Shown in pieces: positions 24,686 through 64,000 of a DNA stretch of 64,000 nucleotides. Position 1 is the stretch's first letter, and each line of letters starts with the position of its first letter. Source of the DNA: a virus (Duplodnaviria; Caudoviricetes); IMG/VR virus record IMGVR_UViG_3300042549_001429, positions 933 to 64,932 of that record. One strand, given 5' to 3'. The notes beneath the pieces are model-generated. The model was not told the DNA's origin. It did no database searches and saw only the letters and a list, made by a program, of their open reading frames with translations. Both the position numbers and the translations under genes were made by a program.

Positions 24686-26104
24686 ATGGCAGGTTCATTA
24701 TTAAGTAATCCTACCTTTCAACTTCAGCCGAGTGCTGAACAGGTAGCGTTACAAACAAACTACATTACCAACTTCAACTTCTTGAATCAGTATCTACCTG
24801 ATACTTACGAGAAGGAATTTGAGCGTTATGGTAATCGCACAATCGCTTCTTTCCTTAGAATGGTAGGAGCTGAGATGCCTTCTAACTCTGACCAAATTAA
24901 GTGGGCAGAACAAGGCCGTCTTCACATCAAGTACACCAACTGTACTTCTGCAGCAGCATTGGCAGCTAACACTGCTACTTTCACTGTAGCTGATTCAGGT
25001 GTAACTTACATCGCAATCCGTGTAGGTCAGACTGTAATGATTCAGAACAACGCTTCAGGTGTGTTCAACAAAGCAATCGTAACTGCTGTACCTTCTGCAA
25101 CTACTTTCACTGTAGCTTACTATGAGGCAACAGGACAAGCATTCGCAGTTTCTACTCAGTGTACTGTATTCATTTACGGTTCTGAGTTCAAGAAAGGAAC
25201 CAACGGAATGATTGGCTCATTGGAATCTGAAGATGAAATCTTCTCTAACAACCCTATTATCATCAAAGATAAGTATGCGGTTAACGGTTCTGATATGGCT
25301 CAAATCGGTTGGGTTGAGGTTACCACTGAGAACGGTGCTACCGGTTACTTGTGGTATTTGAAATCAGAGCACGAGACTCGTCTTCGTTTTGAAGACTATC
25401 TTGAGACTTCAATGATTGAAGCAGTACCTGCTGCTACCGGTTCCGGTGCTAAGACTGCAGGTATGATGGGTTCTGAAGGTATCTTCTACGTTGTTAACAA
25501 CAGAGGTAACGTATGGGGTGGTGGAACTCCAACTTCTCTTAATGAGTGGGATACTATCGTTTCTCGTCTTGACAAGCAAGGAGCTATCGAAGAAAACGTA
25601 ATCTTCGTAAATCGTGGTCTAAGCTTTGACATCGACAATATGTTGGCTACATTGAACGGATACACTTCAGGTGGTGTTGCTCAGTCTGCATCATTCGGTT
25701 TGTTCGACAACGATGTTGACATGGCGTTGAACCTTGGCTTCACAGGTTTCCGTAGAGGTTATGACTTCTACAAGTCTGATTGGAAGTACTTGAACGACCC
25801 AACCATGCGTGGTGGTTTAAACCAAACTGCTGCTACAGCAACCGGTACTATCACAGGTTTGATGGTTCCTGCAGGTTCTACTTCAGTGTATGACCAAATC
25901 ATGGGTAAGAACGCTAAGCGTCCATTCTTGCACGTACGTTACAGAGCTTCTGAAGCTGAAGACAGACGTTACAAGACTTGGATTACAGGTTCTGCCGGTG
26001 GTGCTGCTACTAGCGACCTTGATGCAATGGAGGTAAACTTCCTTTCTGAGCGTTGTGTTTGTACCCTTGGTGCTAACAACTTCGTATTGTTCAGATTTGG
26101 ATAA
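24686..26104 (+). CDS. Major capsid protein
   Basis: 472 aa after the scaffold; strong codon bias; followed by a terminator. Confidence 0.85.
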   Translation: MAGSLLSNPTFQLQPSAEQVALQTNYITNFNFLNQYLPDTYEKEFERYGNRTIASFLRMVGAEMPSNSDQIKWAEQGRLHIKYTNCTSAAALAANTATFTVADSGVTYIAIRVGQTVMIQNNASGVFNKAIVTAVPSATTFTVAYYEATGQAFAVSTQCTVFIYGSEFKKGTNGMIGSLESEDEIFSNNPIIIKDKYAVNGSDMAQIGWVEVTTENGATGYLWYLKSEHETRLRFEDYLETSMIEAVPAATGSGAKTAGMMGSEGIFYVVNNRGNVWGGGTPTSLNEWDTIVSRLDKQGAIEENVIFVNRGLSFDIDNMLATLNGYTSGGVAQSASFGLFDNDVDMALNLGFTGFRRGYDFYKSDWKYLNDPTMRGGLNQTAATATGTITGLMVPAGSTSVYDQIMGKNAKRPFLHVRYRASEAEDRRYKTWITGSAGGAATSDLDAMEVNFLSERCVCTLGANNFVLFRFG

Positions 26105-26113
26105 AAAATAATT

Positions 26114-26145
26114 GGAGGGTGTCTTTAAAGACACTCTCCTTTTTT
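26114..26145 (+). terminator. Intrinsic terminator whose stem contains the perfect palindrome GTGTCTTTAAAGACAC (26119-26134)
   Basis: GGAGGGTGTC-TTTAAA-GACACTCTCC followed by a T-tract. Confidence 0.85.
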
Positions 26146-49847: not shown

Positions 49848-51300
49848 AAAAATCTTTTTTAAAATGGTTGATAGTGTAGTCTTTCTTTTTGGTCACTGCT
49901 TTATAAATTTCGTACTCAATTCCGTCCTTGGCAAATACCCAATAAACTTTATTCTCAAGCCTATCCTTGGTCGTCATCCTATCCTTGCTCTGCCAATAAC
50001 TCGTAGCACTGAAGTCAATGTTATAGTACACCAAGAAGTCAGCGTCACGCAAAGATATTCCCTCTCTACCTGATACAATCTGAAGGGCAATGCTCTTGTC
50101 AGTGTCTTCAAAGACACTCAATTCTGTAGTCAGGGTGTCACCAAATACACTCTTCAGTGCAGCCAACTCCTCCTTGAACTTGTAGAAGATTCCAATCTTG
50201 GACGTACAGAAGTTGTCGTAAATGAACTGAGCCTTAGTCAGGTCAAGCACCATACTGTTACCGCTCTCGAACTTTATCGTTCCACTGCACAACTGATGAA
50301 CCTTCATCATCAACTTGACCGGGGTGTCTGCAAGGATGGTCTCCTCTTTCCCCTCGATAACCAAGTCACGCTTTAGTTTCTTAATCATTGAGTAAGTCCT
50401 GTCGCTCATCTGTACCTCAAGCACCTCCTCAATGGTCTCTGCTTTGAACCCTGCCTCCGCTTGCGTGTAGTTAATCGTGTACGGCTCCATGGCTTTGACT
50501 ATCGTATCCAAGCCACCGCTGTAGTCCTTGATAAACATCCCGTTGATTTTCTTTTGCGTCACGTTCACGTACTTATCACAGAATCTGTAAAAGTTTCTGA
50601 ACTCATCGAACGGATTTTTTGGGATAGCATAGACCTGATGGTACATCTGAGAGTAAGACTCAGGGGTTGGTGTCCCTGATAGCAGTATTACCTTTGGCCT
50701 GTACTTTTGAATCACGCTCGCTACCAACTCTGCCCTGCCACTTGGCTTAGGGAATGCTCCCATGCTGTGAGCCTCATCGCAAACTATTAAATCCCATCTC
50801 TCATTGTTCATTACCAAGTGGAGGCTCTCGTAGTTGATTACCGTAATTTGATAGGATGGCATAAGAAGATTATAGTCAGCCTCAATTGTGCTGATGGCTT
50901 TCTTCTTGGTAATAAATAGCACACGCTGTGCGTGTATTCTATCGGCAATACCTAGACTCGTAAGAGTCTTGCCTGTCCTCACCTCCATGGCAAGGTACAG
51001 GAACCCATGCTTCTCAAGTATCTGAGAGCCTTTCTCGATTATGTCTGTCTGATAATCTCTGAATGTTACGCCTCCTTTCTTTTCCATCTCGTGTAGGTTT
51101 TTGTAGTACTCGCAGCTCCTGATTATTCTGTCTACAGTTTCTTTGTCGGTAGTGTGTTTAGGCACTTTGAGTATCTCTACATTACGACCTCTACCTACTT
51201 TTACATCTTTGGTTTGTGTGACAACTGATTTAAGAATCTCGCATTGCCTCCACATCATCTCGTTACTGTAACAGGGTATGCGTGGTACTATGTCTATCAT
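49837..51300 (-). CDS. SF2 (SNF2/DEAH-like) helicase
   Basis: FRDYQ, EVRTGKT, DEAH, SGTP, EGISL, QSKDR motifs. Confidence 0.9.
   Translation of the reverse strand: MIDIVPRIPCYSNEMMWRQCEILKSVVTQTKDVKVGRGRNVEILKVPKHTTDKETVDRIIRSCEYYKNLHEMEKKGGVTFRDYQTDIIEKGSQILEKHGFLYLAMEVRTGKTLTSLGIADRIHAQRVLFITKKKAISTIEADYNLLMPSYQITVINYESLHLVMNNERWDLIVCDEAHSMGAFPKPSGRAELVASVIQKYRPKVILLSGTPTPESYSQMYHQVYAIPKNPFDEFRNFYRFCDKYVNVTQKKINGMFIKDYSGGLDTIVKAMEPYTINYTQAEAGFKAETIEEVLEVQMSDRTYSMIKKLKRDLVIEGKEETILADTPVKLMMKVHQLCSGTIKFESGNSMVLDLTKAQFIYDNFCTSKIGIFYKFKEELAALKSVFGDTLTTELSVFEDTDKSIALQIVSGREGISLRDADFLVYYNIDFSATSYWQSKDRMTTKDRLENKVYWVFAKDGIEYEIYKAVTKKKDYTINHFKKDFYDT
50102..50117. repeat. 16-bp palindromic motif copy, intragenic (helicase)
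   Basis: GTGTCTTCAAAGACAC. Confidence 0.9.
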
Positions 51301-57470: not shown

Positions 57471-57705
57471 TGTCAATTGTTTTATAGTTTAAAGATTTCT
57501 TTCCGTAGTAGTGGCAGTACTCCTCCACATCGTGCCAAACATCTGTGACCCCATATTGAAGCCCATCCGACCCACTGTTTAACGAGTAAGCGAAGTCCTC
57601 TGCCTCCTGCTTGGTGATGAATGCGTAAACGTGCCCTGAATTGTATCCATCGCAGTCAACTCCATCGGCAAGCACCCAATGCGTAGCGTATTCTTTCTTT
57701 GCCAT
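57460..57705 (-). CDS. Hypothetical early protein
   Basis: 81 aa ORF. Confidence 0.65.
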   Translation of the reverse strand: MAKKEYATHWVLADGVDCDGYNSGHVYAFITKQEAEDFAYSLNSGSDGLQYGVTDVWHDVEEYCHYYGKKSLNYKTIDNES

Positions 57706-57706
57706 G

Positions 57707-58021
57707 TTAATCTTCTTTTGATTTGATTTCTAATGTGTCACACGCATCCTCGATAGCCAACCATATTTGCTCCATCGTAGCCTCATTGGTCAACGCCATC
57801 TCAAGTACCTGCTGTGCCTGCTCTTCTGAGCAATGGTGACCTTCCATTACATCGTCAACGTGCCACAGGTTCTCCATGAAGTAGCCTCGGGATTTTAGTG
57901 TTTGTCTCGCTGTTAAGACATCTTTTAATTGTCTCTTTGCTTGATTCAATTGGTCTCTAAGATAGTCAATTTCAAGTTGAGCAGTACCTGCTGCCGTCAT
58001 TTGGTAGTGATTCTTTGACAT
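57707..58021 (-). CDS. Hypothetical early protein
   Basis: 104 aa; WHVDDV motif. Confidence 0.65.
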   Translation of the reverse strand: MSKNHYQMTAAGTAQLEIDYLRDQLNQAKRQLKDVLTARQTLKSRGYFMENLWHVDDVMEGHHCSEEQAQQVLEMALTNEATMEQIWLAIEDACDTLEIKSKED

Positions 58022-58174
58022 AGTGATTTGATTTGTTTATAGATTACGTAAATGAAAAGACCCACGTGCAAGACAATATAAATTGTGATTGCAAGTGGAA
58101 CGGACAGGAAAAAGAAGTACATCAATTGTCCTGTGATGGATAAGATTTTTTTCATGCCATATATTTTTGGTTTG

Positions 58175-58375
58175 TTAAGTGTTTATAAATCCTCCTTCAA
58201 TTGCTATAGTCCGTCCCTTCTCAAGGGCTCTGTTTAATGATTCGTAGTCCTCAATTAATCCTTCAGAGCCATCATCGTAGACAACGAACAACTCGAATAG
58301 ACCTGAACTGAATACCTCTTTTGCTTTGTCGGTTACCACGAACCACACGAAGCCGTCAATAATTTTTACTTCCAT
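58175..58375 (-). CDS. Hypothetical early protein
   Basis: 66 aa; first gene downstream of hammerhead HH-D. Confidence 0.65.
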   Translation of the reverse strand: MEVKIIDGFVWFVVTDKAKEVFSSGLFELFVVYDDGSEGLIEDYESLNRALEKGRTIAIEGGFINT

Positions 58376-58402
58376 GATTAAATTGATTTGATTGATTAAT
58401 TT

Positions 58403-58453
58403 TCCGTTTCATCCTTTCGGAATCGTCAGTCAGGACACCCATCCTGATACGGA
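58403..58453 (-). ncRNA. Type III hammerhead ribozyme HH-D (U.U at base of stem II)
   Basis: UCCGUA^ UCAGGA UGGGUG UCCUGA CUGACGA UUCC GAAA GGAU GAAA CGGA; predicted cut 3' of 58448. Confidence 0.85.
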
Positions 58454-58458
58454 GGGCA

Positions 58459-58474
58459 GTGTCTTTGAAGACAC
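58459..58474. repeat. 16-bp palindromic motif copy in extended hairpin 5' of HH-D
   Basis: GTGTCTTTGAAGACAC. Confidence 0.9.
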
Positions 58475-58488
58475 CACCCCTGAGGATG

Positions 58489-59580
58489 CTAGGCTTGGAA
58501 CCTGAGCACCTCACTCTCACTGAACCACTCACCGCAACCACTACAGTGGTAGTTCGAGAACCCGTCATGCTCCAAGTCATGGAAGCACTCCACACACACA
58601 GGCTTCTCATTGAGTACATCAAAGTCGCAGTCATCGCAGTCATCATCAATGAAGTCTAGCAAACTCAATTGGTATTTGTTAGCCACATACTTTGTCTCCT
58701 TCAAGTCCTCCTCCTCGTAGTACCATGCCCTGCTTGTCTCCTGAATATACGAAGTGTGAAACATCTCACCCGCACTCGTCTCCTTGATATTGAAGTAAAT
58801 CCAACAGGTCAAAGACTTACCCTTCACAACAATTGGCACCTGCTTTCTCCTGTACCAAGTCGGGTGACCCTCCAACCTGTCAAGGTTTGCCAACACCGTA
58901 CCACTCACCTTGAACACGTCCACCTCCACATTGTAACCTTTTCCACTCTCGTCAATCAAGTAGGGAAGTCCCCTGATTATAAGCGGATACTTGTTTAAGG
59001 TCTTGCCCTTACCCACGTGCTTGGAACTTGTCAGGTAGCGATTGTAATTGTTGTAGCCCTTCTTGAGCGTACCATACACCGCAACCAAGTTATCCTCCAA
59101 CACATTGTCTTTGCTGTACCACACACCGTCACGCTGTGTCCACAACTCTTTGTTGTAAATCTGATACGTCCTGCTGTGCGTGTTGATAGTCACGAACCTG
59201 CACTCATGCTGCTCCAATTCTTTTTTCCACTTGTGGCGGGGCACTCTCCCGAGGCTCTCAGCCAATACACGTGAGTCACTCTTGTTGACATTACCCAAGC
59301 CACGTATCGTGCCATTCATCATAAGCCACTCATGCTTGTTGTCACCGCATCTGAATGGGTGCGTGTTCTCTTTGTTGATGGCACCCACAGTGGCGTACCT
59401 GAAGTGAGCAATGAAAGGGCGCTCTGTATCTAGCACCTTGTACTCTGCTGATTTGTGATAGGTCACCTCAAAGGTATCCAACCATATTACCCCCAAGCCA
59501 TGAGGATTGATTCGTGCTGAAGTCTTTGCGACCTCCTTGGACATTTGCTTGCCCTTCTGTTTGATAATGATTACACACAT
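58489..59580 (-). CDS. Class II glutamine amidotransferase - gamma-glutamylcyclotransferase - Zn finger fusion
   Basis: True start MCVII (Ntn Cys); NPHGLG, HFRYAT, NTHPF, MNG, SDS; then VAVYGTLKKG..LDRLEGHP; CxxC..CxxC. Confidence 0.85.
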   Translation of the reverse strand: MCVIIIKQKGKQMSKEVAKTSARINPHGLGVIWLDTFEVTYHKSAEYKVLDTERPFIAHFRYATVGAINKENTHPFRCGDNKHEWLMMNGTIRGLGNVNKSDSRVLAESLGRVPRHKWKKELEQHECRFVTINTHSRTYQIYNKELWTQRDGVWYSKDNVLEDNLVAVYGTLKKGYNNYNRYLTSSKHVGKGKTLNKYPLIIRGLPYLIDESGKGYNVEVDVFKVSGTVLANLDRLEGHPTWYRRKQVPIVVKGKSLTCWIYFNIKETSAGEMFHTSYIQETSRAWYYEEEDLKETKYVANKYQLSLLDFIDDDCDDCDFDVLNEKPVCVECFHDLEHDGFSNYHCSGCGEWFSESEVLRFQA

Positions 59581-59602
59581 AGATAGATTTGGTTTGTGGG
59601 CA

Positions 59603-59618
59603 GTGTCTTTGAAGACAC
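59603..59618. repeat. 16-bp palindromic motif copy in 5' leader of GATase gene
   Basis: GTGTCTTTGAAGACAC between promoter and start codon. Confidence 0.9.
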
Positions 59619-59646
59619 AGAACCCGATTAATAAACGAGTAATAGA

Positions 59647-59678
59647 CAAAGATAATACATAGAATGTACATATCCAAA
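59647..59678 (-). promoter_or_regulatory. Bacteroidota sigma promoter (-33 TTTG, N20, -7 TATCTTTG)
   Basis: Both consensus elements present. Confidence 0.75.
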
Positions 59679-59686
59679 TTTATTTT

Positions 59687-59848
59687 TTAGTAGACCTTCT
59701 TTGCCTTGAACTTTGAGCGCTCAAGATTCGGTCGGTCTCCAATGAATTTGTAGTAGGCTTTGTCAACCGCCTCCCACTTTGTGTGGGCTGTTACGTTCAG
59801 CACGTAGACAGTCCCGTAGTAGATTTTAAAGTAGTGTAAACTCTCCAT
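59687..59848 (-). CDS. Small early protein (53 aa, not in ORF track)
   Basis: MESLHYFKIYYG..KFKAKKVY; fills the operon gap. Confidence 0.55.
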   Translation of the reverse strand: MESLHYFKIYYGTVYVLNVTAHTKWEAVDKAYYKFIGDRPNLERSKFKAKKVY

Positions 59849-59849
59849 G

Positions 59850-60035
59850 CTATTTGATTTTAGTTAGGTTAAAAGGGATGGCATCCAAGCCATACTCAAA
59901 CGTGTAGCCCTCAGCCTCACACCTGCTAAGCAGGTCAGCGCAAGCCTCATACGTGTTGTCATCCTCAGCGAACTCGCTCAGGATTAATTGTACCTTGTAA
60001 GGTAGCGTCTCGATTACTTCAAATAAGTCTTCCAT
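59850..60035 (-). CDS. Hypothetical early protein
   Basis: DLFE..GYTFEYGLDA.PFNL. Confidence 0.65.
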   Translation of the reverse strand: MEDLFEVIETLPYKVQLILSEFAEDDNTYEACADLLSRCEAEGYTFEYGLDAIPFNLTKIK

Positions 60036-60082
60036 TTTAATTTTGTTTTGTGGAGGGTTTCAACCCCCTCGGGTTTGAAATT

Positions 60083-60131
60083 CTGTTTCGTTCTTTAGAA
60101 CTCATCAGCCCGGGCACACACCCGGGGACAG
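60083..60131 (-). ncRNA. Type III hammerhead ribozyme HH-C
   Basis: CUGUC^ CCCGGG UGUGUG CCCGGG CUGAUGA GUUC UAAA GAAC GAAA CAG; predicted cut 3' of 60127. Confidence 0.92.
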
Positions 60132-60151
60132 CCGGGAGCCGAAGCCCCCGG
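60132..60151 (-). other. C(UUCG)G hairpin immediately 5' of HH-C
   Basis: CCGGGGGC-UUCG-GCUCCCGG. Confidence 0.75.
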
Positions 60152-60155
60152 ATTA

Positions 60156-60365
60156 TTACCTACCAACCATAAACTCTTGCTCGATAGCGAAATTTTTCAG
60201 GTCACTCTTGGTGACCTCACCTATGATTAGGTGCACGTTGCTCTCCTCCGTACTCCTAGCAATGAATTGATTGGTTTTAAGCAACACGTTCCACTCATTG
60301 GCAATCTCATTTGCCTCCTGTTTTGTGCCTACAAAGTAGGTCTTCACTGAAGTAGTCTTTTCCAT
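60156..60365 (-). CDS. Hypothetical early protein
   Basis: 69 aa ORF. Confidence 0.65.
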   Translation of the reverse strand: MEKTTSVKTYFVGTKQEANEIANEWNVLLKTNQFIARSTEESNVHLIIGEVTKSDLKNFAIEQEFMVGR

Positions 60366-60370
60366 TTTGA

Positions 60371-60913
60371 TTATTGATTGATAGTTGTCAACACTCGATT
60401 GAAGTCCTCAGGTCGCACGACCACGAAGTAATTCGGTCTATACACCCCGTCCGTATCACTCTCCCACCTTCTGTAAGGCACACCCAACGCCATCAAGCCT
60501 ATCTCAATGGGCACAAGCGTGCCAAGGTCATTGCTATGCCACACCGAATACAGGGGCTTGCTATAGCCACCCTCAGGAATCCACACGCTAGACAGGTCGA
60601 ACTCAGGCTCTGCCTCAGGGATGAAGTCACCCACAAAACTTTCCACGTGCACCCACTCACCGTTCCAAGCGTGCCCGTTCAAATACCACTGCCCTTTCTT
60701 TTGCACTATGCTCACGTCAGGGATGCCGTTCAACCGCTCCTTTGTTGTTGGAGTAGGCCAACCCGCATTGGTTATCCAAAGGCCGTCCGTCCTGAACTCA
60801 GCAATTGAATGGCCATGCAGCCAAATAGTTCGGCCATCCGTCCACGTGTTGCCGATTCGTCTGTACTCGTTGCGCAAAAAAGCGCTCACAATTTTTTCAG
60901 TTACTTGTCTCAT
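60371..60913 (-). CDS. Hypothetical early protein
   Basis: LHGHSIA..GWPTPTTKERLN motif recalled from phage early proteins. Confidence 0.7.
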   Translation of the reverse strand: MRQVTEKIVSAFLRNEYRRIGNTWTDGRTIWLHGHSIAEFRTDGLWITNAGWPTPTTKERLNGIPDVSIVQKKGQWYLNGHAWNGEWVHVESFVGDFIPEAEPEFDLSSVWIPEGGYSKPLYSVWHSNDLGTLVPIEIGLMALGVPYRRWESDTDGVYRPNYFVVVRPEDFNRVLTTINQ

Positions 60914-60917
60914 TTTG

Positions 60918-61112
60918 TTATTGGTTTTTGGTTGCTGAATAAATTCTTAATCCGTTTACTTTTTGCACGCTCACTTGGAACTTGCTGTGAATAGCCTCAA
61001 GGCTTGCCTTGTACTTTGCCACCTGCTCGGGGGTCAAGTAAAGCAGGCGGTCGATTACGTCCTGAACTATCTCAGCACGCTCATTGATTGGGTCTTGGTC
61101 TTTGGTTTGCAT
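60918..61112 (-). CDS. Hypothetical early protein
   Basis: Start moved to MQTKDQ, downstream of HH-B. Confidence 0.6.
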   Translation of the reverse strand: MQTKDQDPINERAEIVQDVIDRLLYLTPEQVAKYKASLEAIHSKFQVSVQKVNGLRIYSATKNQ

Positions 61113-61136
61113 AAAATAAAATTTGAAATGTGGTTT

Positions 61137-61187
61137 GCTGTTTCGTTCTTTTGAACTCATCAGGGAGGGCACTCACCCACCGACAGC
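61137..61187 (-). ncRNA. Type III hammerhead ribozyme HH-B
   Basis: GCUGUC^ GGUGGG UGAGUG CCCUCC CUGAUGA GUUC AAAA GAAC GAAA CAGC; predicted cut 3' of 61182. Confidence 0.9.
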
Positions 61188-61188
61188 A

Positions 61189-61204
61189 GTGTCTTTGAAG
61201 ACAC
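61189..61204. repeat. 16-bp palindromic motif copy 5' of HH-B
   Basis: GTGTCTTTGAAGACAC. Confidence 0.9.
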
Positions 61205-61215
61205 CACTGCCACGC

Positions 61216-61434
61216 CTAGAACCTCTCAGGCTTGTTGCGCTCGGGCTTGCTGAAAAGCAGCACCCCCGCAACAAAAAGCAGGGATAACTCAGCCAAGAAA
61301 AACACAGCCAAGTAAAGCAGGCTAATAAAATTGAACTCAGGTAAATCCTGCACAAGGGCAACACTAACTCTGAAGAGGGACACAGCCACAAAAATGTAGC
61401 AAAGGGTAAGGGTAATTTTCTCGAACTTTTTCAT
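61216..61434 (-). CDS. Small 2-TM membrane protein flanked by two hammerheads
   Basis: Two long hydrophobic segments. Confidence 0.65.
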   Translation of the reverse strand: MKKFEKITLTLCYIFVAVSLFRVSVALVQDLPEFNFISLLYLAVFFLAELSLLFVAGVLLFSKPERNKPERF

Positions 61435-61458
61435 TGTAATATGGTTTTAAATTGGTTT

Positions 61459-61510
61459 GCTGTTTCGCCCTTTGGGGCTCATCAGGCGGGGCAACACACC
61501 CCGCTACAGC
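61459..61510 (-). ncRNA. Type III hammerhead ribozyme HH-A
   Basis: GCUGUA^ GCGGGG UGUGUUG CCCCGC CUGAUGA GCCC CAAA GGGC GAAA CAGC; predicted cut 3' of 61505. Confidence 0.92.
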
Positions 61511-61532
61511 GGAGGGGGATTGAGCCCCCTCC
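61511..61532 (-). other. GC-rich hairpin immediately 5' of HH-A
   Basis: GGAGGGGG-CUCAAU-CCCCCUCC. Confidence 0.75.
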
Positions 61533-61539
61533 CTTTGCA

Positions 61540-62400
61540 TTACCGCAGGAATCCTCGGATGCTATCGCCCTCCTCGCCTGTGTTTATGTAGGCTTGGAAC
61601 GCCTTTGCTAGTTTTAGCACCTCCTCAGCCTTTTGGGCGTCCCCGTTGTACATGGAAAGGATAACAGGGCGCACACGCTTGATAAATGAATCGAAAGAGC
61701 CTGTGGGATTATTTACCGAAAAGTCAACCAAGTGGTAAAACAATTCGTAGCGTCTCATTACCTGCTTTACGCTCTCAAAGCGGGACGGCAAGCGGAACTC
61801 AAGGCAAGAGCCCTTCACCAAGGCAACTTGGTAGCGGTCACCGTAGTGCAACGGGTCTAGGCGCTTGTTGCTCCCGCAGTACCTGTTTGTTAGCCTGTTT
61901 CTGAAGAGGGCAAGCACCACGCCTGCATTTTTGCGCACCTTGCAAAGTAAATCCGTCCCATCCAAGCCCTCGCAGGCAATTGTGATGTGACCCCCGCAAC
62001 GTCTATCTGAGGGGCTGTAGCGGTCATCAATGATTTTTTCCGCTTTGTAAATCATATCGTACACCTTTGTCCTCCATTGCCCCGCAGGGAGCAAAGGGAG
62101 CACATGGGTCACCGCCTCATAGCCGCAGGATGCATCCCGCTCAAAGCCGCAAAACAATTCGTACTCCCGCACCGCATTGCGGCTCAATTGATTTTTCTCA
62201 ATTTCAAAGCCTATGGTGAACCTTGAGGCGTATTCGACCCCGTCAAACTTTATGGCTTTTTGGTCGGCTTTTTTAAGCCCCGCAACGTCCACGCTGTATT
62301 TGGACTTATTCAAAAACAAGGGCTGTGGCTTTCTGTGATAGCCCGCTACTTCGCCTCTTTCTAGTTCGCCTGTGATTTTGTACTCGATACCTTTTTGCAT
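61540..62400 (-). CDS. Putative amidoligase (COOH-NH2 ligase)
   Basis: IGFEIE..RDAS..YEAVT..CGGHI..LEFR motif order. Confidence 0.75.
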   Translation of the reverse strand: MQKGIEYKITGELERGEVAGYHRKPQPLFLNKSKYSVDVAGLKKADQKAIKFDGVEYASRFTIGFEIEKNQLSRNAVREYELFCGFERDASCGYEAVTHVLPLLPAGQWRTKVYDMIYKAEKIIDDRYSPSDRRCGGHITIACEGLDGTDLLCKVRKNAGVVLALFRNRLTNRYCGSNKRLDPLHYGDRYQVALVKGSCLEFRLPSRFESVKQVMRRYELFYHLVDFSVNNPTGSFDSFIKRVRPVILSMYNGDAQKAEEVLKLAKAFQAYINTGEEGDSIRGFLR

Positions 62401-62417
62401 GATTTCTGTGGTTTAAA

Positions 62418-62433
62418 GTGTCTTTGAAGACAC
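62418..62433. repeat. 16-bp palindromic motif copy, intergenic
   Basis: GTGTCTTTGAAGACAC. Confidence 0.9.
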
Positions 62434-62437
62434 AGGA

Positions 62438-63106
62438 TTAAAGTTGATTATTTTGAGAATTTTGATTATTGATTGAACGATACAGGAACTCGATTGCATC
62501 CACTACAGCGGAACTTTCGCCCCCTGTGATTTTTACACGTCCTTCAGTGTCTACTTTTACGCTTAGGCTTTGCCCGTCTACTTTGTAGGATAAGGAAAGA
62601 ACCACCTGTGAACGTGTTTCGACCTGTGGGGCGTTCTCTTCGCCTTCGCCTTCACCTTCACCGCCTTCACCTTGTCCACCGCCTTCAGGGGCATTTTCCA
62701 CCTGCTTTGCAAACTTCAAAAGTCCTTCTAGCGACCTGTTTGGCTCTTCGCCTTGCGCCTCCAATTCATCGCATTTTGCTTTGAACGTGTCAACAACTTC
62801 ATCCTTCAACTTGGATGCCTTCACTACTTTGTAGAAAAAGGATTTTTGCCACCCGAAGACCTTCAAGCCTATTTGCTCATTAGTCCACGAAATGCCTTCT
62901 TCAGCGCAAAGCCTTTGCCCGTCCTCAGAGCCGAACCACTGCACCACCGACCCAACCAACTTGGAAAGGGTCAATGTCTGTTCAAACTTCTTTTTCTTGG
63001 CGTTGGTGATAGTACGCTGCACCGCCCTTATTTCCTGTAGGTTCAAAGCCTGTTTGACCTGTGGGAGGCTAAGGAAAGCCTGTTCGATTGATAGTAAATT
63101 ACTCAT
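62438..63106 (-). CDS. First early gene, hypothetical (possible HTH; G/E linker)
   Basis: 222 aa; WTNEQIGLKVFGWQKSFFYKVV helix-turn-helix-like segment. Confidence 0.65.
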   Translation of the reverse strand: MSNLLSIEQAFLSLPQVKQALNLQEIRAVQRTITNAKKKKFEQTLTLSKLVGSVVQWFGSEDGQRLCAEEGISWTNEQIGLKVFGWQKSFFYKVVKASKLKDEVVDTFKAKCDELEAQGEEPNRSLEGLLKFAKQVENAPEGGGQGEGGEGEGEGEENAPQVETRSQVVLSLSYKVDGQSLSVKVDTEGRVKITGGESSAVVDAIEFLYRSINNQNSQNNQL

Positions 63107-63157
63107 TTTTAATGGTTTATGTGGTTGAATAGGTCAATTGTCCGTCAATTGCCTGTA

Positions 63158-63187
63158 CAAATATAGTCAAAATCTAATTGCTCCAAA
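63158..63187 (-). promoter_or_regulatory. Early Bacteroidota sigma promoter (-33 TTTG, N18, -7 TATATTTG)
   Basis: Both consensus elements at the head of the minus-strand operon. Confidence 0.75.
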
Positions 63188-63332
63188 CTTTTTTTCTGTT
63201 TTTGTTTAATTCTAGTATAAATCTTTTTAGCCTCAGGGCTTTACGGGAGGCACAAAGGGGCTGTTTTGTTTATGTCTACAGACTACAGGAGGGGGGCAAA
63301 GCCCTTTCTCTTTGCCTGTGGGCTCTTTGTTA

Positions 63333-63348
63333 GTGTCTTTGAAGACAC
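63333..63348. repeat. 16-bp palindromic motif copy in non-coding region
   Basis: GTGTCTTTGAAGACAC. Confidence 0.9.
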
Positions 63349-63351
63349 AAA

Positions 63352-63423
63352 GGGGGCGCAACGGGCGCAACAAAGGGAGGGAGGGGCGCAATACGGGGCG
63401 CAATACAGGGCAACGGGGGGCGC
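63352..63423 (+). repeat. GC-rich short repeats (GGGCGCAA x4 plus variants)
   Basis: GGGCGCAAC, GGGCGCAAC, GGGGCGCAATAC x2, GGGGCAAC, GGGGGGCGC. Confidence 0.7.
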
Positions 63424-63645
63424 TTTACGTCCTGAGGGGGTGCTGCGGTGCTACAGCCATGGCAAAAAGGCAAAAAATCCTGAGGGGCGGAGGCAAAACG
63501 TACCCCCACCCCTCGAAAAAAAAGTCGTTTTCGGACACGGGCTGTCTTCACCAAACCGCTATATAGCCCAAACACTCCGGGTATCTGATAATTTTTTTAT
63601 CTTTACCCTGAAATATTTCGTTTACTGTTTTAAAACAAAAAGATT

Positions 63646-63879
63646 ATGAAACTAAATTTGAAGAACTCGATTTACTCTAAGGGCTACACGATGGGTAGTG
63701 GCTTAGATGTAGAGAAGGGTCGGTTGATTAACAATCGTCCTGATGGCATGACGGGCATTGCTAAGGCTGCCGAGGTAAAGAAAGCAATGAAGCAAGCTGA
63801 GAAGGTGAGCATGATTGCTGATGGTGTTAGTTTAGGATACCTTAAAGCAGAGATACTTGAGGGTCCTGAAAAGATGTAG
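63646..63879 (+). CDS. Hypothetical protein
   Basis: 77 aa; followed by a terminator. Confidence 0.65.
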   Translation: MKLNLKNSIYSKGYTMGSGLDVEKGRLINNRPDGMTGIAKAAEVKKAMKQAEKVSMIADGVSLGYLKAEILEGPEKM

Positions 63880-63901
63880 TGTTTTGGGTTTATTGGTTAG
63901 T

Positions 63902-63937
63902 AAAAGGGAGGCTTAGTTTTAGGTCTCCTTTTCTTTT
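63902..63937 (+). terminator. Intrinsic (possibly bidirectional) terminator
   Basis: AAAAGGGAGGCTTA-GTTT-TAGGTCTCCTTTTCTTTT. Confidence 0.7.
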
Positions 63938-63947
63938 ATGCTATTAT

Positions 63948-63985
63948 CGACATTTCTAACACAGTTTTATGTCGTTTTTATGTCG
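63948..63985. repeat. Second ATGTCG iteron cluster
   Basis: Inverted CGACAT at 63948; ATGTCG at 63969 and 63980. Confidence 0.55.
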
Positions 63986-64000
63986 TTTTTATTTTTATAA

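What the first reader, a model, noticed from the sequence alone, without database searches (positions are those of the whole stretch)
61137..61218. HH-B looks switchable: an upstream hairpin sequesters its cleavage site 4 nt after a stop codon
Seen: on the minus strand GGCAGUGGUGUC-UUCAAA-GACACUGCUGUC (61211-61182) forms 12 contiguous pairs (3 GU). These include the 5' strand of stem III and the GUC cleavage triplet, so the fold is mutually exclusive with the active ribozyme. The hairpin starts 4 nt after the UAG of ORF 61216-61434. HH-D has a weaker analogue: CAUCCU right after the stop can pair with AGGAUG of stem/loop I. Inference: a terminating ribosome, or a protein binding the palindrome hairpin, could control cleavage, giving a translation-coupled ribozyme.
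Basis: partly seen in the sequence, partly recalled or inferred. Interest (0 to 1): 0.7.

Follow-up and report, generated by a model that had tools for sequence, protein, structure and literature searches.

The report
Hairpin fused to phage hammerhead ribozyme
A self-cutting hammerhead RNA between two small genes of a freshwater phage shares its cut-site strand with a conserved upstream hairpin, so the two folds exclude each other, but this hairpin precedes nearly every hammerhead in the phage family and a translation-controlled switch is only one untested reading.

Summary
On the minus strand, TAG (61218-61216) is followed by 4 nt and a 12-bp hairpin (61211-61182, 3 G-U). The hairpin uses the stem III 5' strand and C17 of hammerhead HH-B. 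In folding models it wins: the stem III fraction is about 2e-5 with the upstream strand and about 0.6 without it.

The hairpin is not special to HH-B. Its 16-nt core occurs 11 times in this 65-kb phage. With a covarying lower stem, it sits directly 5' of stem III in most hammerheads of about 30 related contigs. The gap is 0 or -1 nt in 33 of 47 modules. HH-B, at -8, is the extreme of a "fused" subclass.

The one accessible orthologue (L035) keeps a 4-bp overlap, or 7 bp with one bulge. Shuffles reach this in 2% of trials.

My preferred reading: the hairpin is a structural cap. It stacks on stem III and ends the upstream mRNA after cleavage. In fused copies it also attenuates cutting and then traps the product. 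Ribosome gating is geometrically possible but untested (about 0.2). The HH-D "analogue" is at chance level.

Earlier notes of this scan describe similar hairpin-hammerhead designs in other phages.

The parts
61216..61434 (-). p72: 72-aa predicted membrane-protein gene upstream of HH-B. Stop TAG at 61218-61216.
   Evidence: ORF list. Five homologues at 57-79% identity. No homologue in loci L005-L032.
61182..61211 (-). 12-bp hairpin: 5' arm 61211-61200, loop 61199-61194, 3' arm 61193-61182. The lower 7 pairs use the stem III 5' strand and C17.
61189..61204 (-). 16-nt core (GUGUC-UUCAAA-GACAC), one of 11 identical-arm copies in the genome.
   Evidence: 11 sites against 0.03 expected..
61136..61188 (-). 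HH-B, type III hammerhead. Stem III 5' strand 61188-61183; C17 61182 (cut between 61182 and 61181); stem I 61181-61164 (one U-U mismatch); CUGAUGA 61163-61157; stem II 61156-61145; GAAA 61144-61141; stem III 3' strand 61141-61136.
   Evidence: Covariation in a 54-sequence alignment.
61210..61213 (-). GUGG, 5' strand of a possible outer helix (P0) with CCAC at 61133-61130. It forms only in the active fold.
   Evidence: Constrained folds. AAGUGG/CCACUU is invariant in 8 of 8 loci of the p64 group. This helix is inferred.
61130..61133 (-). CCAC, 3' strand of the possible P0 helix, in the leader of the next gene.
60918..61112 (-). p64: downstream 64-aa gene. ATG at 61112-61110, 23 nt after stem III.
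   Evidence: (homologues in 11 loci).
61457..61532 (-). HH-A with its own abutting hairpin (GGAGGGGG/CCCCCUCC, 61532-61511). Its stem III sequence matches that of HH-B.
60080..60151 (-). HH-C with an abutting UUCG hairpin (60151-60132). Stem III is only 4 bp.
58401..58480 (-). HH-D with the same 16-nt core hairpin (58480-58454) abutting stem III (58453-58449).

Best explanation
HH-B is one copy of a composite hairpin-plus-type-III-hammerhead module that punctuates the early or middle operon of a family of roughly 55-65 kb freshwater phages.

Shown. The hairpin has a 16-nt core and a covarying lower stem of 4-6 bp. It lies 3-13 nt after the upstream stop codon and directly against stem III. Hairpins of unrelated sequence occupy the same place at other hammerheads.

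Inferred. The hairpin is a structural cap. Before cutting, it insulates and coaxially extends the short stem III. After cutting, it is the 3'-terminal hairpin of the upstream mRNA.

Shown. In a fused subclass the core is joined straight to the stem III strand. This subclass comprises HH-B, its orthologue L035, L030 and the p64-junction group. In it the hairpin's lower stem competes for the same nucleotides with stem III and an outer helix (GUGG/CCAC).

Shown in models only. The uncleaved HH-B transcript sits in the hairpin state, so HH-B should be a slow, attenuated cutter that needs the hairpin base to open.

Inferred. Once cut, the hairpin closes over the released 3' end, leaving it flush with a 0-nt overhang. 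This expels the 5' product, blocks re-ligation and caps the p72 message. What opens the hairpin is unknown. It could be breathing, a ribosome terminating 4 nt upstream, or a factor that reads the 16-mer.
For: Hammerhead fold: 54 distinct family members; 12 of 15 consensus pairs show compensatory changes; the core is invariant.

Hairpin lower stem: 47 sequences, 92.0% of cells paired against 85.8% in shuffles. Covariation score 0.239 against 0.132, reached by 0 of 500 shuffles. One pair shows UG 16, GC 11, CG 9, GU 4, UA 3. Flank pairing averages 4.56 bp on the sense strand and 0.38 bp on the antisense strand, which points to RNA-level pairing.

Position: the gap to stem III is 0 in 17 and -1 in 16 of 47 modules. 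The stop-to-hairpin distance is 3-13 nt in 42 of 47. In loci not fetched through the hairpin motif, 15 of 17 hammerheads have a hairpin ending within 1 nt of stem III, with at least 5 unrelated hairpin sequences.

In L013 the same hairpin is the closed stem III of a type I hammerhead.

Fused copies: the ensemble cost of forming stem III is +6.5 kcal/mol for HH-B, +4.2 for L035, +4.4 for L030, and +3.7, +5.0 and +3.7 for the p64 group. HH-B is the most extreme of 54. Shuffle tests give 0.002 for the window, 0.02 for L035 and 0.076 for L030. In the p64 group one compensatory G-C to C-G change (6 loci against 2) keeps the hairpin pair while breaking stem III pair 16.4-15.4.
Against: Everything mechanistic is in silico.

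Nearest-neighbour models ignore hammerhead tertiary contacts and coaxial stacking, so the true balance may be closer.

Across the family, capture of the stem III strand by upstream sequence is not above shuffles: 2.43 against 2.27 paired nt, and -2.6 against -1.9 kcal/mol.

Stand-alone copies of the 16-mer mostly lack a lower stem (0.5-0.9 bp). Some lie inside coding sequence, and one is antisense to its gene. A cap role therefore cannot explain the core itself.

HH-B carries the only U-U mismatch among 54 stem I helices, and L035 has a bulged A in stem II. This could mean decay rather than design.

Only one true orthologue could be examined.
Confidence: 0.45

Rival explanations
1. Translation-gated switch. 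The ribosome terminating at the p72 stop codon unzips the base of the hairpin and frees C17 and the stem III strand. HH-B then cuts only on translated messages.
For: The two folds are mutually exclusive and the hairpin is strongly favoured in models. The hairpin starts 3-4 nt after the stop in the window. From recalled ribosome footprint geometry (about 12 nt 3' of the A-site codon, not from any call), about 5 of the 7 competing nucleotides would lie inside a terminating ribosome. The overlap is partly kept in L035. An earlier scan note (e1-3481804) reports a like design in other phages.
Against: The short stop-to-hairpin distance is a family trait (42 of 47 at 3-13 nt). It also holds where the hairpin does not hide stem III, so it is not specific to gating. 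In L035 the MFE hairpin starts 7 nt after the stop, and its 4 overlapping pairs lie at +11 to +14, at the edge of a ribosome's reach. There are no expression data.
Confidence: 0.2
2. HH-B is a disabled or decaying ribozyme at the junction of an inserted gene cassette. The hairpin is kept for its own role and the hammerhead no longer cuts at a useful rate.
For: p72 is absent from all other family loci, so the cassette is an insertion. HH-B has the only non-standard stem I pair (U-U) in 54 sequences. Its orthologue has a bulged A in stem II. The predicted active fraction is about 1e-5.
Against: The catalytic core and GUC are intact in both orthologues, at 79% p72 protein identity. Stem III and the outer helix remain complementary. 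A dead ribozyme would be expected to lose core positions.
Confidence: 0.15
3. The palindrome is a DNA site for a dimeric protein, and the RNA hairpin next to HH-B is incidental.
For: There are 11 exact-arm copies against 0.03 expected. Copies inside conserved coding sequence are kept in relatives while their flanks diverge, and one copy (50102) is antisense to its gene. L031 has its own arms with the same centre, 9 copies in 13.4 kb.
Against: Hammerhead-associated copies have lower stems with G-U pairs that work only on the sense strand (4.56 against 0.38 bp) and with covariation. Loop orientation follows the gene strand in 9 of the 10 oriented window copies.
Confidence: 0.08
4. Circle lock. 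HH-A and HH-B release a 323-nt p72 RNA whose ends can rebuild a hammerhead and ligate. The hairpin then locks the junction against re-cutting.
For: HH-A and HH-B share the stem III sequence in both the window and L035. Perreault et al. 2011 raised circular products as a possibility and did not detect them (PMC3088659, passages read).
Against: There is no junction evidence. Shared stem III sequences between neighbouring hammerheads are common in this family, where UCCGU types dominate. A similar bold reading on other DNA fell on later checking (scan note e1-2575356).
Confidence: 0.04

Closest known systems
Clustered hammerhead ribozymes flanking single genes in prophages and phages (Perreault et al. 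2011, PMC3088659; passages read)
   Same: Several type III hammerheads lie between small genes of a phage operon. The presumed role is to cut a polycistronic RNA. The paper speculates about regulated cleavage.
   Different: The passages I read describe no conserved hairpin abutting stem III, no genome-wide core motif, and no fused two-state variant. I could not open the paper's supplementary figures.
Viroid and satellite-RNA hammerheads with alternative inactive folds (recalled, not checked here)
   Same: A competing helix holds the cleavage-site strand, so the active fold is a minor state.
   Different: Those are circular RNA replicons in which the alternative fold protects the monomer. Here it is an mRNA of a DNA phage, and the competitor is a repeated hairpin module placed just after a stop codon.
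REP elements of enterobacteria (as summarised in PMC12306157; passages read)
   Same: A repeated palindrome sits just after stop codons inside operons. Its RNA hairpin is a barrier to exonucleases, and those near the stop codon can stall ribosomes.
   Different: REPs are not coupled to a ribozyme. Here some copies lie inside coding sequence, and the 3' end is made by self-cleavage.
RNase III processing sites of phage T7 early mRNA (recalled)
   Same: Intergenic processing leaves a hairpin at the 3' end of the upstream message.
   Different: The cut here is made by a cis ribozyme beside the hairpin, not by a host enzyme within it.
Engineered ribozyme insulators such as RiboJ (recalled)
   Same: A hammerhead plus an added hairpin is used to standardise mRNA ends.
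   Different: In RiboJ the hairpin is downstream and synthetic. Here it is natural, upstream and conserved.

Membership tests
Type III hammerhead ribozyme (Rfam RF00008) | Conserved core (CUGANGA, GAAA, NUH cleavage triplet) in type III order | tested here: met
   HH-B has GUC, CUGAUGA and GAAA with full-length model alignment 1-54. The core is invariant in 54 relatives.
Type III hammerhead ribozyme (Rfam RF00008) | Three helices supported by covariation | tested here: met
   12 of 15 consensus pairs have compensatory changes. HH-B has one U-U mismatch in stem I.
Type III hammerhead ribozyme (Rfam RF00008) | Score at or above Rfam's curated cut-off (a database threshold, not a structural feature) | tested here: inconclusive
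   43.4 bits against a gathering score of 48.5. E = 7.2e-7 in 12 kb and 9.2e-10 in the genome search.
Type III hammerhead ribozyme (Rfam RF00008) | Self-cleavage after C17 | not testable with these tools
   The only RNA run held contigs of a relative and gave no cover at 61118-61318.
Conformationally gated (switching) self-cleaving ribozyme | Two mutually exclusive folds sharing the cleavage-site strand | tested here: met
   The lower 7 hairpin pairs use 61188-61182. The stem III fraction is 2e-5 with the upstream strand and 0.57-0.66 without it.
Conformationally gated (switching) self-cleaving ribozyme | Alternative pairing conserved or covarying in relatives | tested here: inconclusive
   L035 keeps 4 bp, plus 3 more with a bulge; shuffles give 0.02. 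L030 keeps 4 bp; shuffles give 0.076. The p64 group shows one compensatory pair. The family-wide test is negative. Only one true orthologue was available.
Conformationally gated (switching) self-cleaving ribozyme | A trigger (ribosome, protein or ligand) that shifts the balance | not testable with these tools
   Only the geometry can be argued: the stop codon lies 3-4 nt before the hairpin.
REP-like repeated hairpin / 3'-end stabiliser | Many copies of one palindrome, mostly just after stop codons | tested here: met
   11 copies in the genome. The stop-to-hairpin distance is 3-13 nt in 42 of 47 hammerhead-linked copies. However, 25 of 110 distinct copies were scored inside ORFs.
REP-like repeated hairpin / 3'-end stabiliser | Protects upstream mRNA from 3' exonucleases | not testable with these tools
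   No decay data.
Intrinsic (rho-independent) terminator | GC-rich hairpin followed by a U tract | tested here: not met
   The HH-B hairpin is not among the 10 terminator-like sites of 57500-64000, and no T run follows it.

The most novel reading that the evidence does not exclude
The fused hairpin-hammerhead junctions are natural two-state RNA devices. One state is a locked hairpin. The other is an open state held by stem III plus an outer helix that reaches into the next gene's leader. A ribosome terminating 3-4 nt upstream, or a factor that reads the lineage-specific 16-nt hairpin core, flips the device. Cutting of the phage polycistronic message is then licensed by translation of the upstream gene. 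That would give phage hammerheads a regulatory role.
Probability: 0.2. Interest if true: 0.75.

Novelty: new variant of a known kind. Interest (0 to 1): 0.5.

Why it matters
The function of the many hammerheads in phage genomes has been open since 2011. This family offers a defined architecture: stop codon, conserved hairpin, stem III, ribozyme, then the next start codon about 21 nt later. It also offers a natural series running from abutting to deeply overlapping hairpins. HH-B and its orthologue L035 are ready-made test cases. Measuring cleavage across this series would show whether the hairpin helps, caps or gates the ribozyme. The lineage-specific 16-nt cores used all over each genome point to a recognition or copying system that is not yet identified.

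Tried and rejected
Rfam at gathering threshold found nothing in the window. The hammerheads appear only at E-value threshold.

A blastn of 58000-62500 against deposited phages gave one weak hit, 12% covered at 68% identity. It was no help.

N4-like idea: the 3001-aa ORF made me suspect hairpin promoters of a virion RNA polymerase. Pfam gave no polymerase hit and the motif is spread over the whole genome, so I dropped the idea and do not claim that taxonomy.

Family-wide switch: I tested whether sequence 5' of the hairpin captures the stem III strand across all 54 modules. It does not exceed shuffles.

HH-D analogue: at chance level.

Terminator reading for the HH-B hairpin: no U tract.

RNA evidence: one metatranscriptome run (X1, 11% of words) held only short contigs of a 95-99% relative. 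Depth in 61118-61318 was zero and no ends were informative. This says nothing either way.

T-loop resemblance of the UUCAA loop: considered from memory only. The loop is one nucleotide short and the closing pair is reversed. I did not pursue it.

Replication-linked orientation of the 16-mer: GC skew flips at about 47-48 kb together with gene direction, so replication and transcription cannot be separated.

Literature: searches for hammerhead + bacteriophage + intergenic + type III, hammerhead + N4-like (0 papers) and hammerhead + alternative + stop codon + phage + self-cleavage listed no paper describing an upstream hairpin module or translation-coupled phage hammerheads. I read only listings and abstracts there, and passages of PMC3088659 and PMC12306157. 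Supplements were not opened and may show secondary structures that include flanks.

Full report
THE OBSERVATION. Read on the minus strand, ORF 61216-61434 ends in TAG (61218-61216). Four nucleotides later a hairpin begins. Its 5' arm is 61211-61200, its loop 61199-61194 and its 3' arm 61193-61182. It has 12 contiguous pairs, three of them G-U. The 3' arm ends with the stem III 5' strand (61188-61183) and C17 (61182) of a type III hammerhead. The rest of the ribozyme follows: stem I 61181-64, CUGAUGA 61163-57, stem II 61156-45, GAAA 61144-41 and stem III 3' strand 61141-36.

Rfam finds nothing at gathering score. At E-value threshold it finds four type III hammerheads on this strand, scoring 43.6, 43.4, 35.0 and 32.5 bits against a cut-off of 48.5. 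The core pattern occurs 5 times against 1.05 expected. The window is nearly the whole of a 64,932-bp virus record with terminal repeats, and these four are its only hammerhead matches.

ARE THEY HAMMERHEADS? I collected relatives from public viral and metagenome contigs and scanned them with a simple stem/core rule. This gave 64 hits, of which 1 lay at a locus edge and was skipped. The remaining hits reduced to 55 distinct sequences. I dropped one as spurious (L011:3707; 2-bp stem III, no hairpin). The 54 remaining bodies align with an invariant core, and 12 of 15 consensus pairs show compensatory changes. The fold is therefore conserved. Self-cleavage itself is not shown.

THE HAIRPIN IS A MODULE. 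All four hammerheads of the window have a hairpin directly 5' of stem III. HH-B and HH-D share the same 16-nt core. An exact 20-nt search found that core in 24 further viral stretches, mostly followed at once by a hammerhead.

Forty-seven hammerhead-linked hairpins align without gaps. Their lower stems covary: 92.0% of cells are paired against 85.8% in shuffles, the covariation score is 0.239 against 0.132 (0 of 500 shuffles reach it), and one pair shows five pair types. Flank pairing averages 4.56 bp on the sense strand and 0.38 bp on the antisense strand. This is therefore an RNA hairpin.

Its placement is tight. The gap to stem III is 0 in 17 and -1 in 16 of 47 modules. The stop codon lies 3-13 nt upstream in 42 of 47. 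The next ATG lies mostly 15-31 nt after stem III.

These loci were fetched through the hairpin itself, so I repeated the count on loci fetched through a protein, through a hammerhead body or through p72. There, 15 of 17 hammerheads have a hairpin ending within 1 nt of stem III, and these hairpins have at least five unrelated sequences. In L013 the same hairpin is the closed stem III of a type I hammerhead. The position and the stacking geometry are what is conserved at hammerheads, not the hairpin sequence.

HH-B IS THE EXTREME OF A FUSED SUBCLASS. In most modules the hairpin has its own 3' strand and stem III starts after it. In HH-B the core runs straight into the stem III strand, so the lower stem must use that strand. 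Its gap is -8, the most negative of 47; the next are -4 (L030) and -3 (four modules).

The upstream gene p72 has no homologue in loci L005-L032. It does have five homologues at 57-79% identity elsewhere, so it is a real gene and a lineage-specific insertion. A scan with their alignment recovered one true orthologue, L035 (identical L036). There the same core-to-stem-III fusion is present. The 5' flank differs in sequence yet pairs over 4 contiguous stem III nucleotides, and over all 7 up to C17 if one bulge is allowed.

Shuffling the 15 nt 5' of the minimal hairpin reaches the observed capture energy in 0.2% of trials for the window, 2% for L035 and 7.6% for L030, each from 500 shuffles. L030 is a third lineage with the same fusion behind a different gene.

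A second fused group precedes the p64 gene in 8 loci. Here a 3-bp lower stem overlaps stem III. One compensatory change (G-C in 6 loci, C-G in 2) keeps the hairpin pair while breaking stem III pair 16.4-15.4. That is one evolutionary event, not two.

Against this, a test over all 54 modules shows no general excess of stem III capture: 2.43 against 2.27 paired nt. The overlap is a property of the fused subclass, not of the family.

ENERGETICS. With 40-60 nt of upstream sequence, the ensemble fraction with stem III formed is about 2e-5 for HH-B. Without the hairpin's 5' arm it is 0.57-0.66. For HH-A the figures are 0.27-0.87 and 0.87-0.91, and for HH-C 0.014-0.03 and 0.03-0.04, so neither shows a large effect. 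For HH-D they are 0.03-0.10 and 0.35-0.69. HH-B shows the largest upstream effect of 54 modules. Fifteen of 54 exceed 100-fold, and the median is 5.6-fold.

When 25 nt downstream are included, the best active fold of every fused module adds an outer helix. This is GUGG/CCAC in the window, and AAGUGG/CCACUU, invariant, in 8 of 8 p64-group loci. Even so, the active state costs +6.5 kcal/mol in HH-B and +3.7 to +5.0 in the others. These models omit hammerhead tertiary contacts and coaxial stacking, so the milder cases may be near balance. HH-B probably is not.

The hairpin is transcribed before the stem III 3' strand, so there is no kinetic window in which the ribozyme folds first.

TRANSLATION COUPLING. 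The stop codon is 3-4 nt before the hairpin. But the short distance is shared by modules that have no overlap. In L035 the MFE hairpin starts 7 nt after the stop. I have no expression evidence: the single RNA run gave no cover here. The proposed HH-D analogue is at chance.

THE 16-NT CORE. It occurs 11 times in the window against 0.03 expected. Four of the copies follow a stop codon or precede a start codon. One sits on a terminator-like stem with a U run (26119). At least three lie inside genes (3174, 41089, 50102), and one of those is antisense. Stand-alone copies lack a lower stem, at 0.5-0.9 bp. In L031 every hammerhead hairpin has different arms but the same centre, and that variant core occurs 9 times in 13.4 kb, while the window's core is absent there. 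Each lineage thus has its own standard hairpin. This points to a reader that co-evolves with it or to concerted copying. I cannot say which.

WHAT I THINK IT IS. At hammerheads the hairpin is most simply a structural cap. It keeps the short stem III strand from mispairing with the upstream coding RNA, it stacks on stem III, and after cleavage it is the 3'-terminal hairpin of the upstream message. This is comparable to REP hairpins (PMC12306157, passages read) and, from memory, to T7 RNase III sites.

In fused copies the same hairpin also competes with stem III. The likely consequences are slower cutting of the precursor and, after the cut, closure of the hairpin over the freed end. That closure would release the product and prevent re-ligation. 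In HH-B the product would end flush with the helix.

A regulated switch, a decaying ribozyme, a DNA-level protein site and a circle lock remain as rivals. Their odds are given in the Rival explanations section.

KNOWN OR NEW. Clustered phage hammerheads are known, and regulated cleavage has been suggested for them (PMC3088659, passages read). I found no description of a conserved hairpin abutting stem III, of a genome-wide core motif, or of fused two-state variants. Notes from this scan report similar hairpin-hammerhead designs in other phages (e1-3481804, e1-5877459, e1-6017483). The general theme is therefore not unique to this genome. I class it as a new variant of a known kind.

LIMITS. 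There is one accessible orthologue. Every energetic statement comes from nearest-neighbour models. There are no cleavage or expression data. The host is unknown. Supplements of the cited papers were not seen.

Noticed in passing
window 3174, 19055, 26119, 41089, 50102, 54683, 58459, 59603, 61189, 62418, 63333 (16 nt each): An exact-arm 16-mer (GTGTC-N6-GACAC) occurs 11 times against 0.03 expected. The centre is TTCAAA in 10 copies and TTTAAA in 1. Loop orientation follows the gene strand except at 50102. Copies inside genes are kept in relatives while their flanks diverge.
   Followed up: partly
L031 (13,443 nt): 1021, 3383, 4412, 5071, 5833, 6143, 7187, 7571, 8501: A related phage has its own 16-mer with different arms (GAGGG/CCCTC) and the same centre. 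There are 9 copies: 4 before hammerheads and 5 alone. The window's arms are absent there.
   Followed up: partly
L013:5324-5483 (minus strand of the locus): A type I hammerhead in which the family hairpin is the closed stem III. Stem I is GGCAUA/UAUGUC.
   Followed up: partly
window 61213-61210 with 61133-61130; L016, L018, L019, L023, L008, L027, L041, L042: A possible outer helix brackets the hairpin plus hammerhead. It is GUGG/CCAC in the window and AAGUGG/CCACUU, invariant, in 8 of 8 loci of the p64 group. Its 3' strand lies in the next gene's leader.
   Followed up: partly
window 61505 to 61182; L035 2431 and 2753: HH-A and HH-B, which flank p72, share the same stem III sequence in both the window and the orthologous contig. 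The released RNA would be 323 nt.
   Followed up: no
window 26109-26144 (+): One copy of the core sits on a GC-rich stem followed by a T run, just after ORF 24686-26104. It looks like an intrinsic terminator.
   Followed up: no
L006:11129-11202 (-) and L007:324-417 (-): ARAGORN calls odd tRNA-like genes (anticodon not assignable, or 4 nt) that are followed at once by a copy of the 16-mer. The window has no tRNA.
   Followed up: no
window 58406-58429 (-) and 11 relatives: 12 of 54 family hammerheads, HH-D among them, have U at both 10.1 and 11.1 (the first stem II pair) instead of G-C. HH-D also has CUGACGA.
   Followed up: no
protein P0006 (101 aa): Its 36-residue N-terminal extension is a read-through of the HH-A-like hairpin and ribozyme. 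This is a gene-calling artefact, and it shows that the upstream hammerhead is kept in that contig.
   Followed up: no
window 63514-63482 (-): A 14-bp GC-rich hairpin with a T run lies near the start of the minus-strand operon.
   Followed up: no
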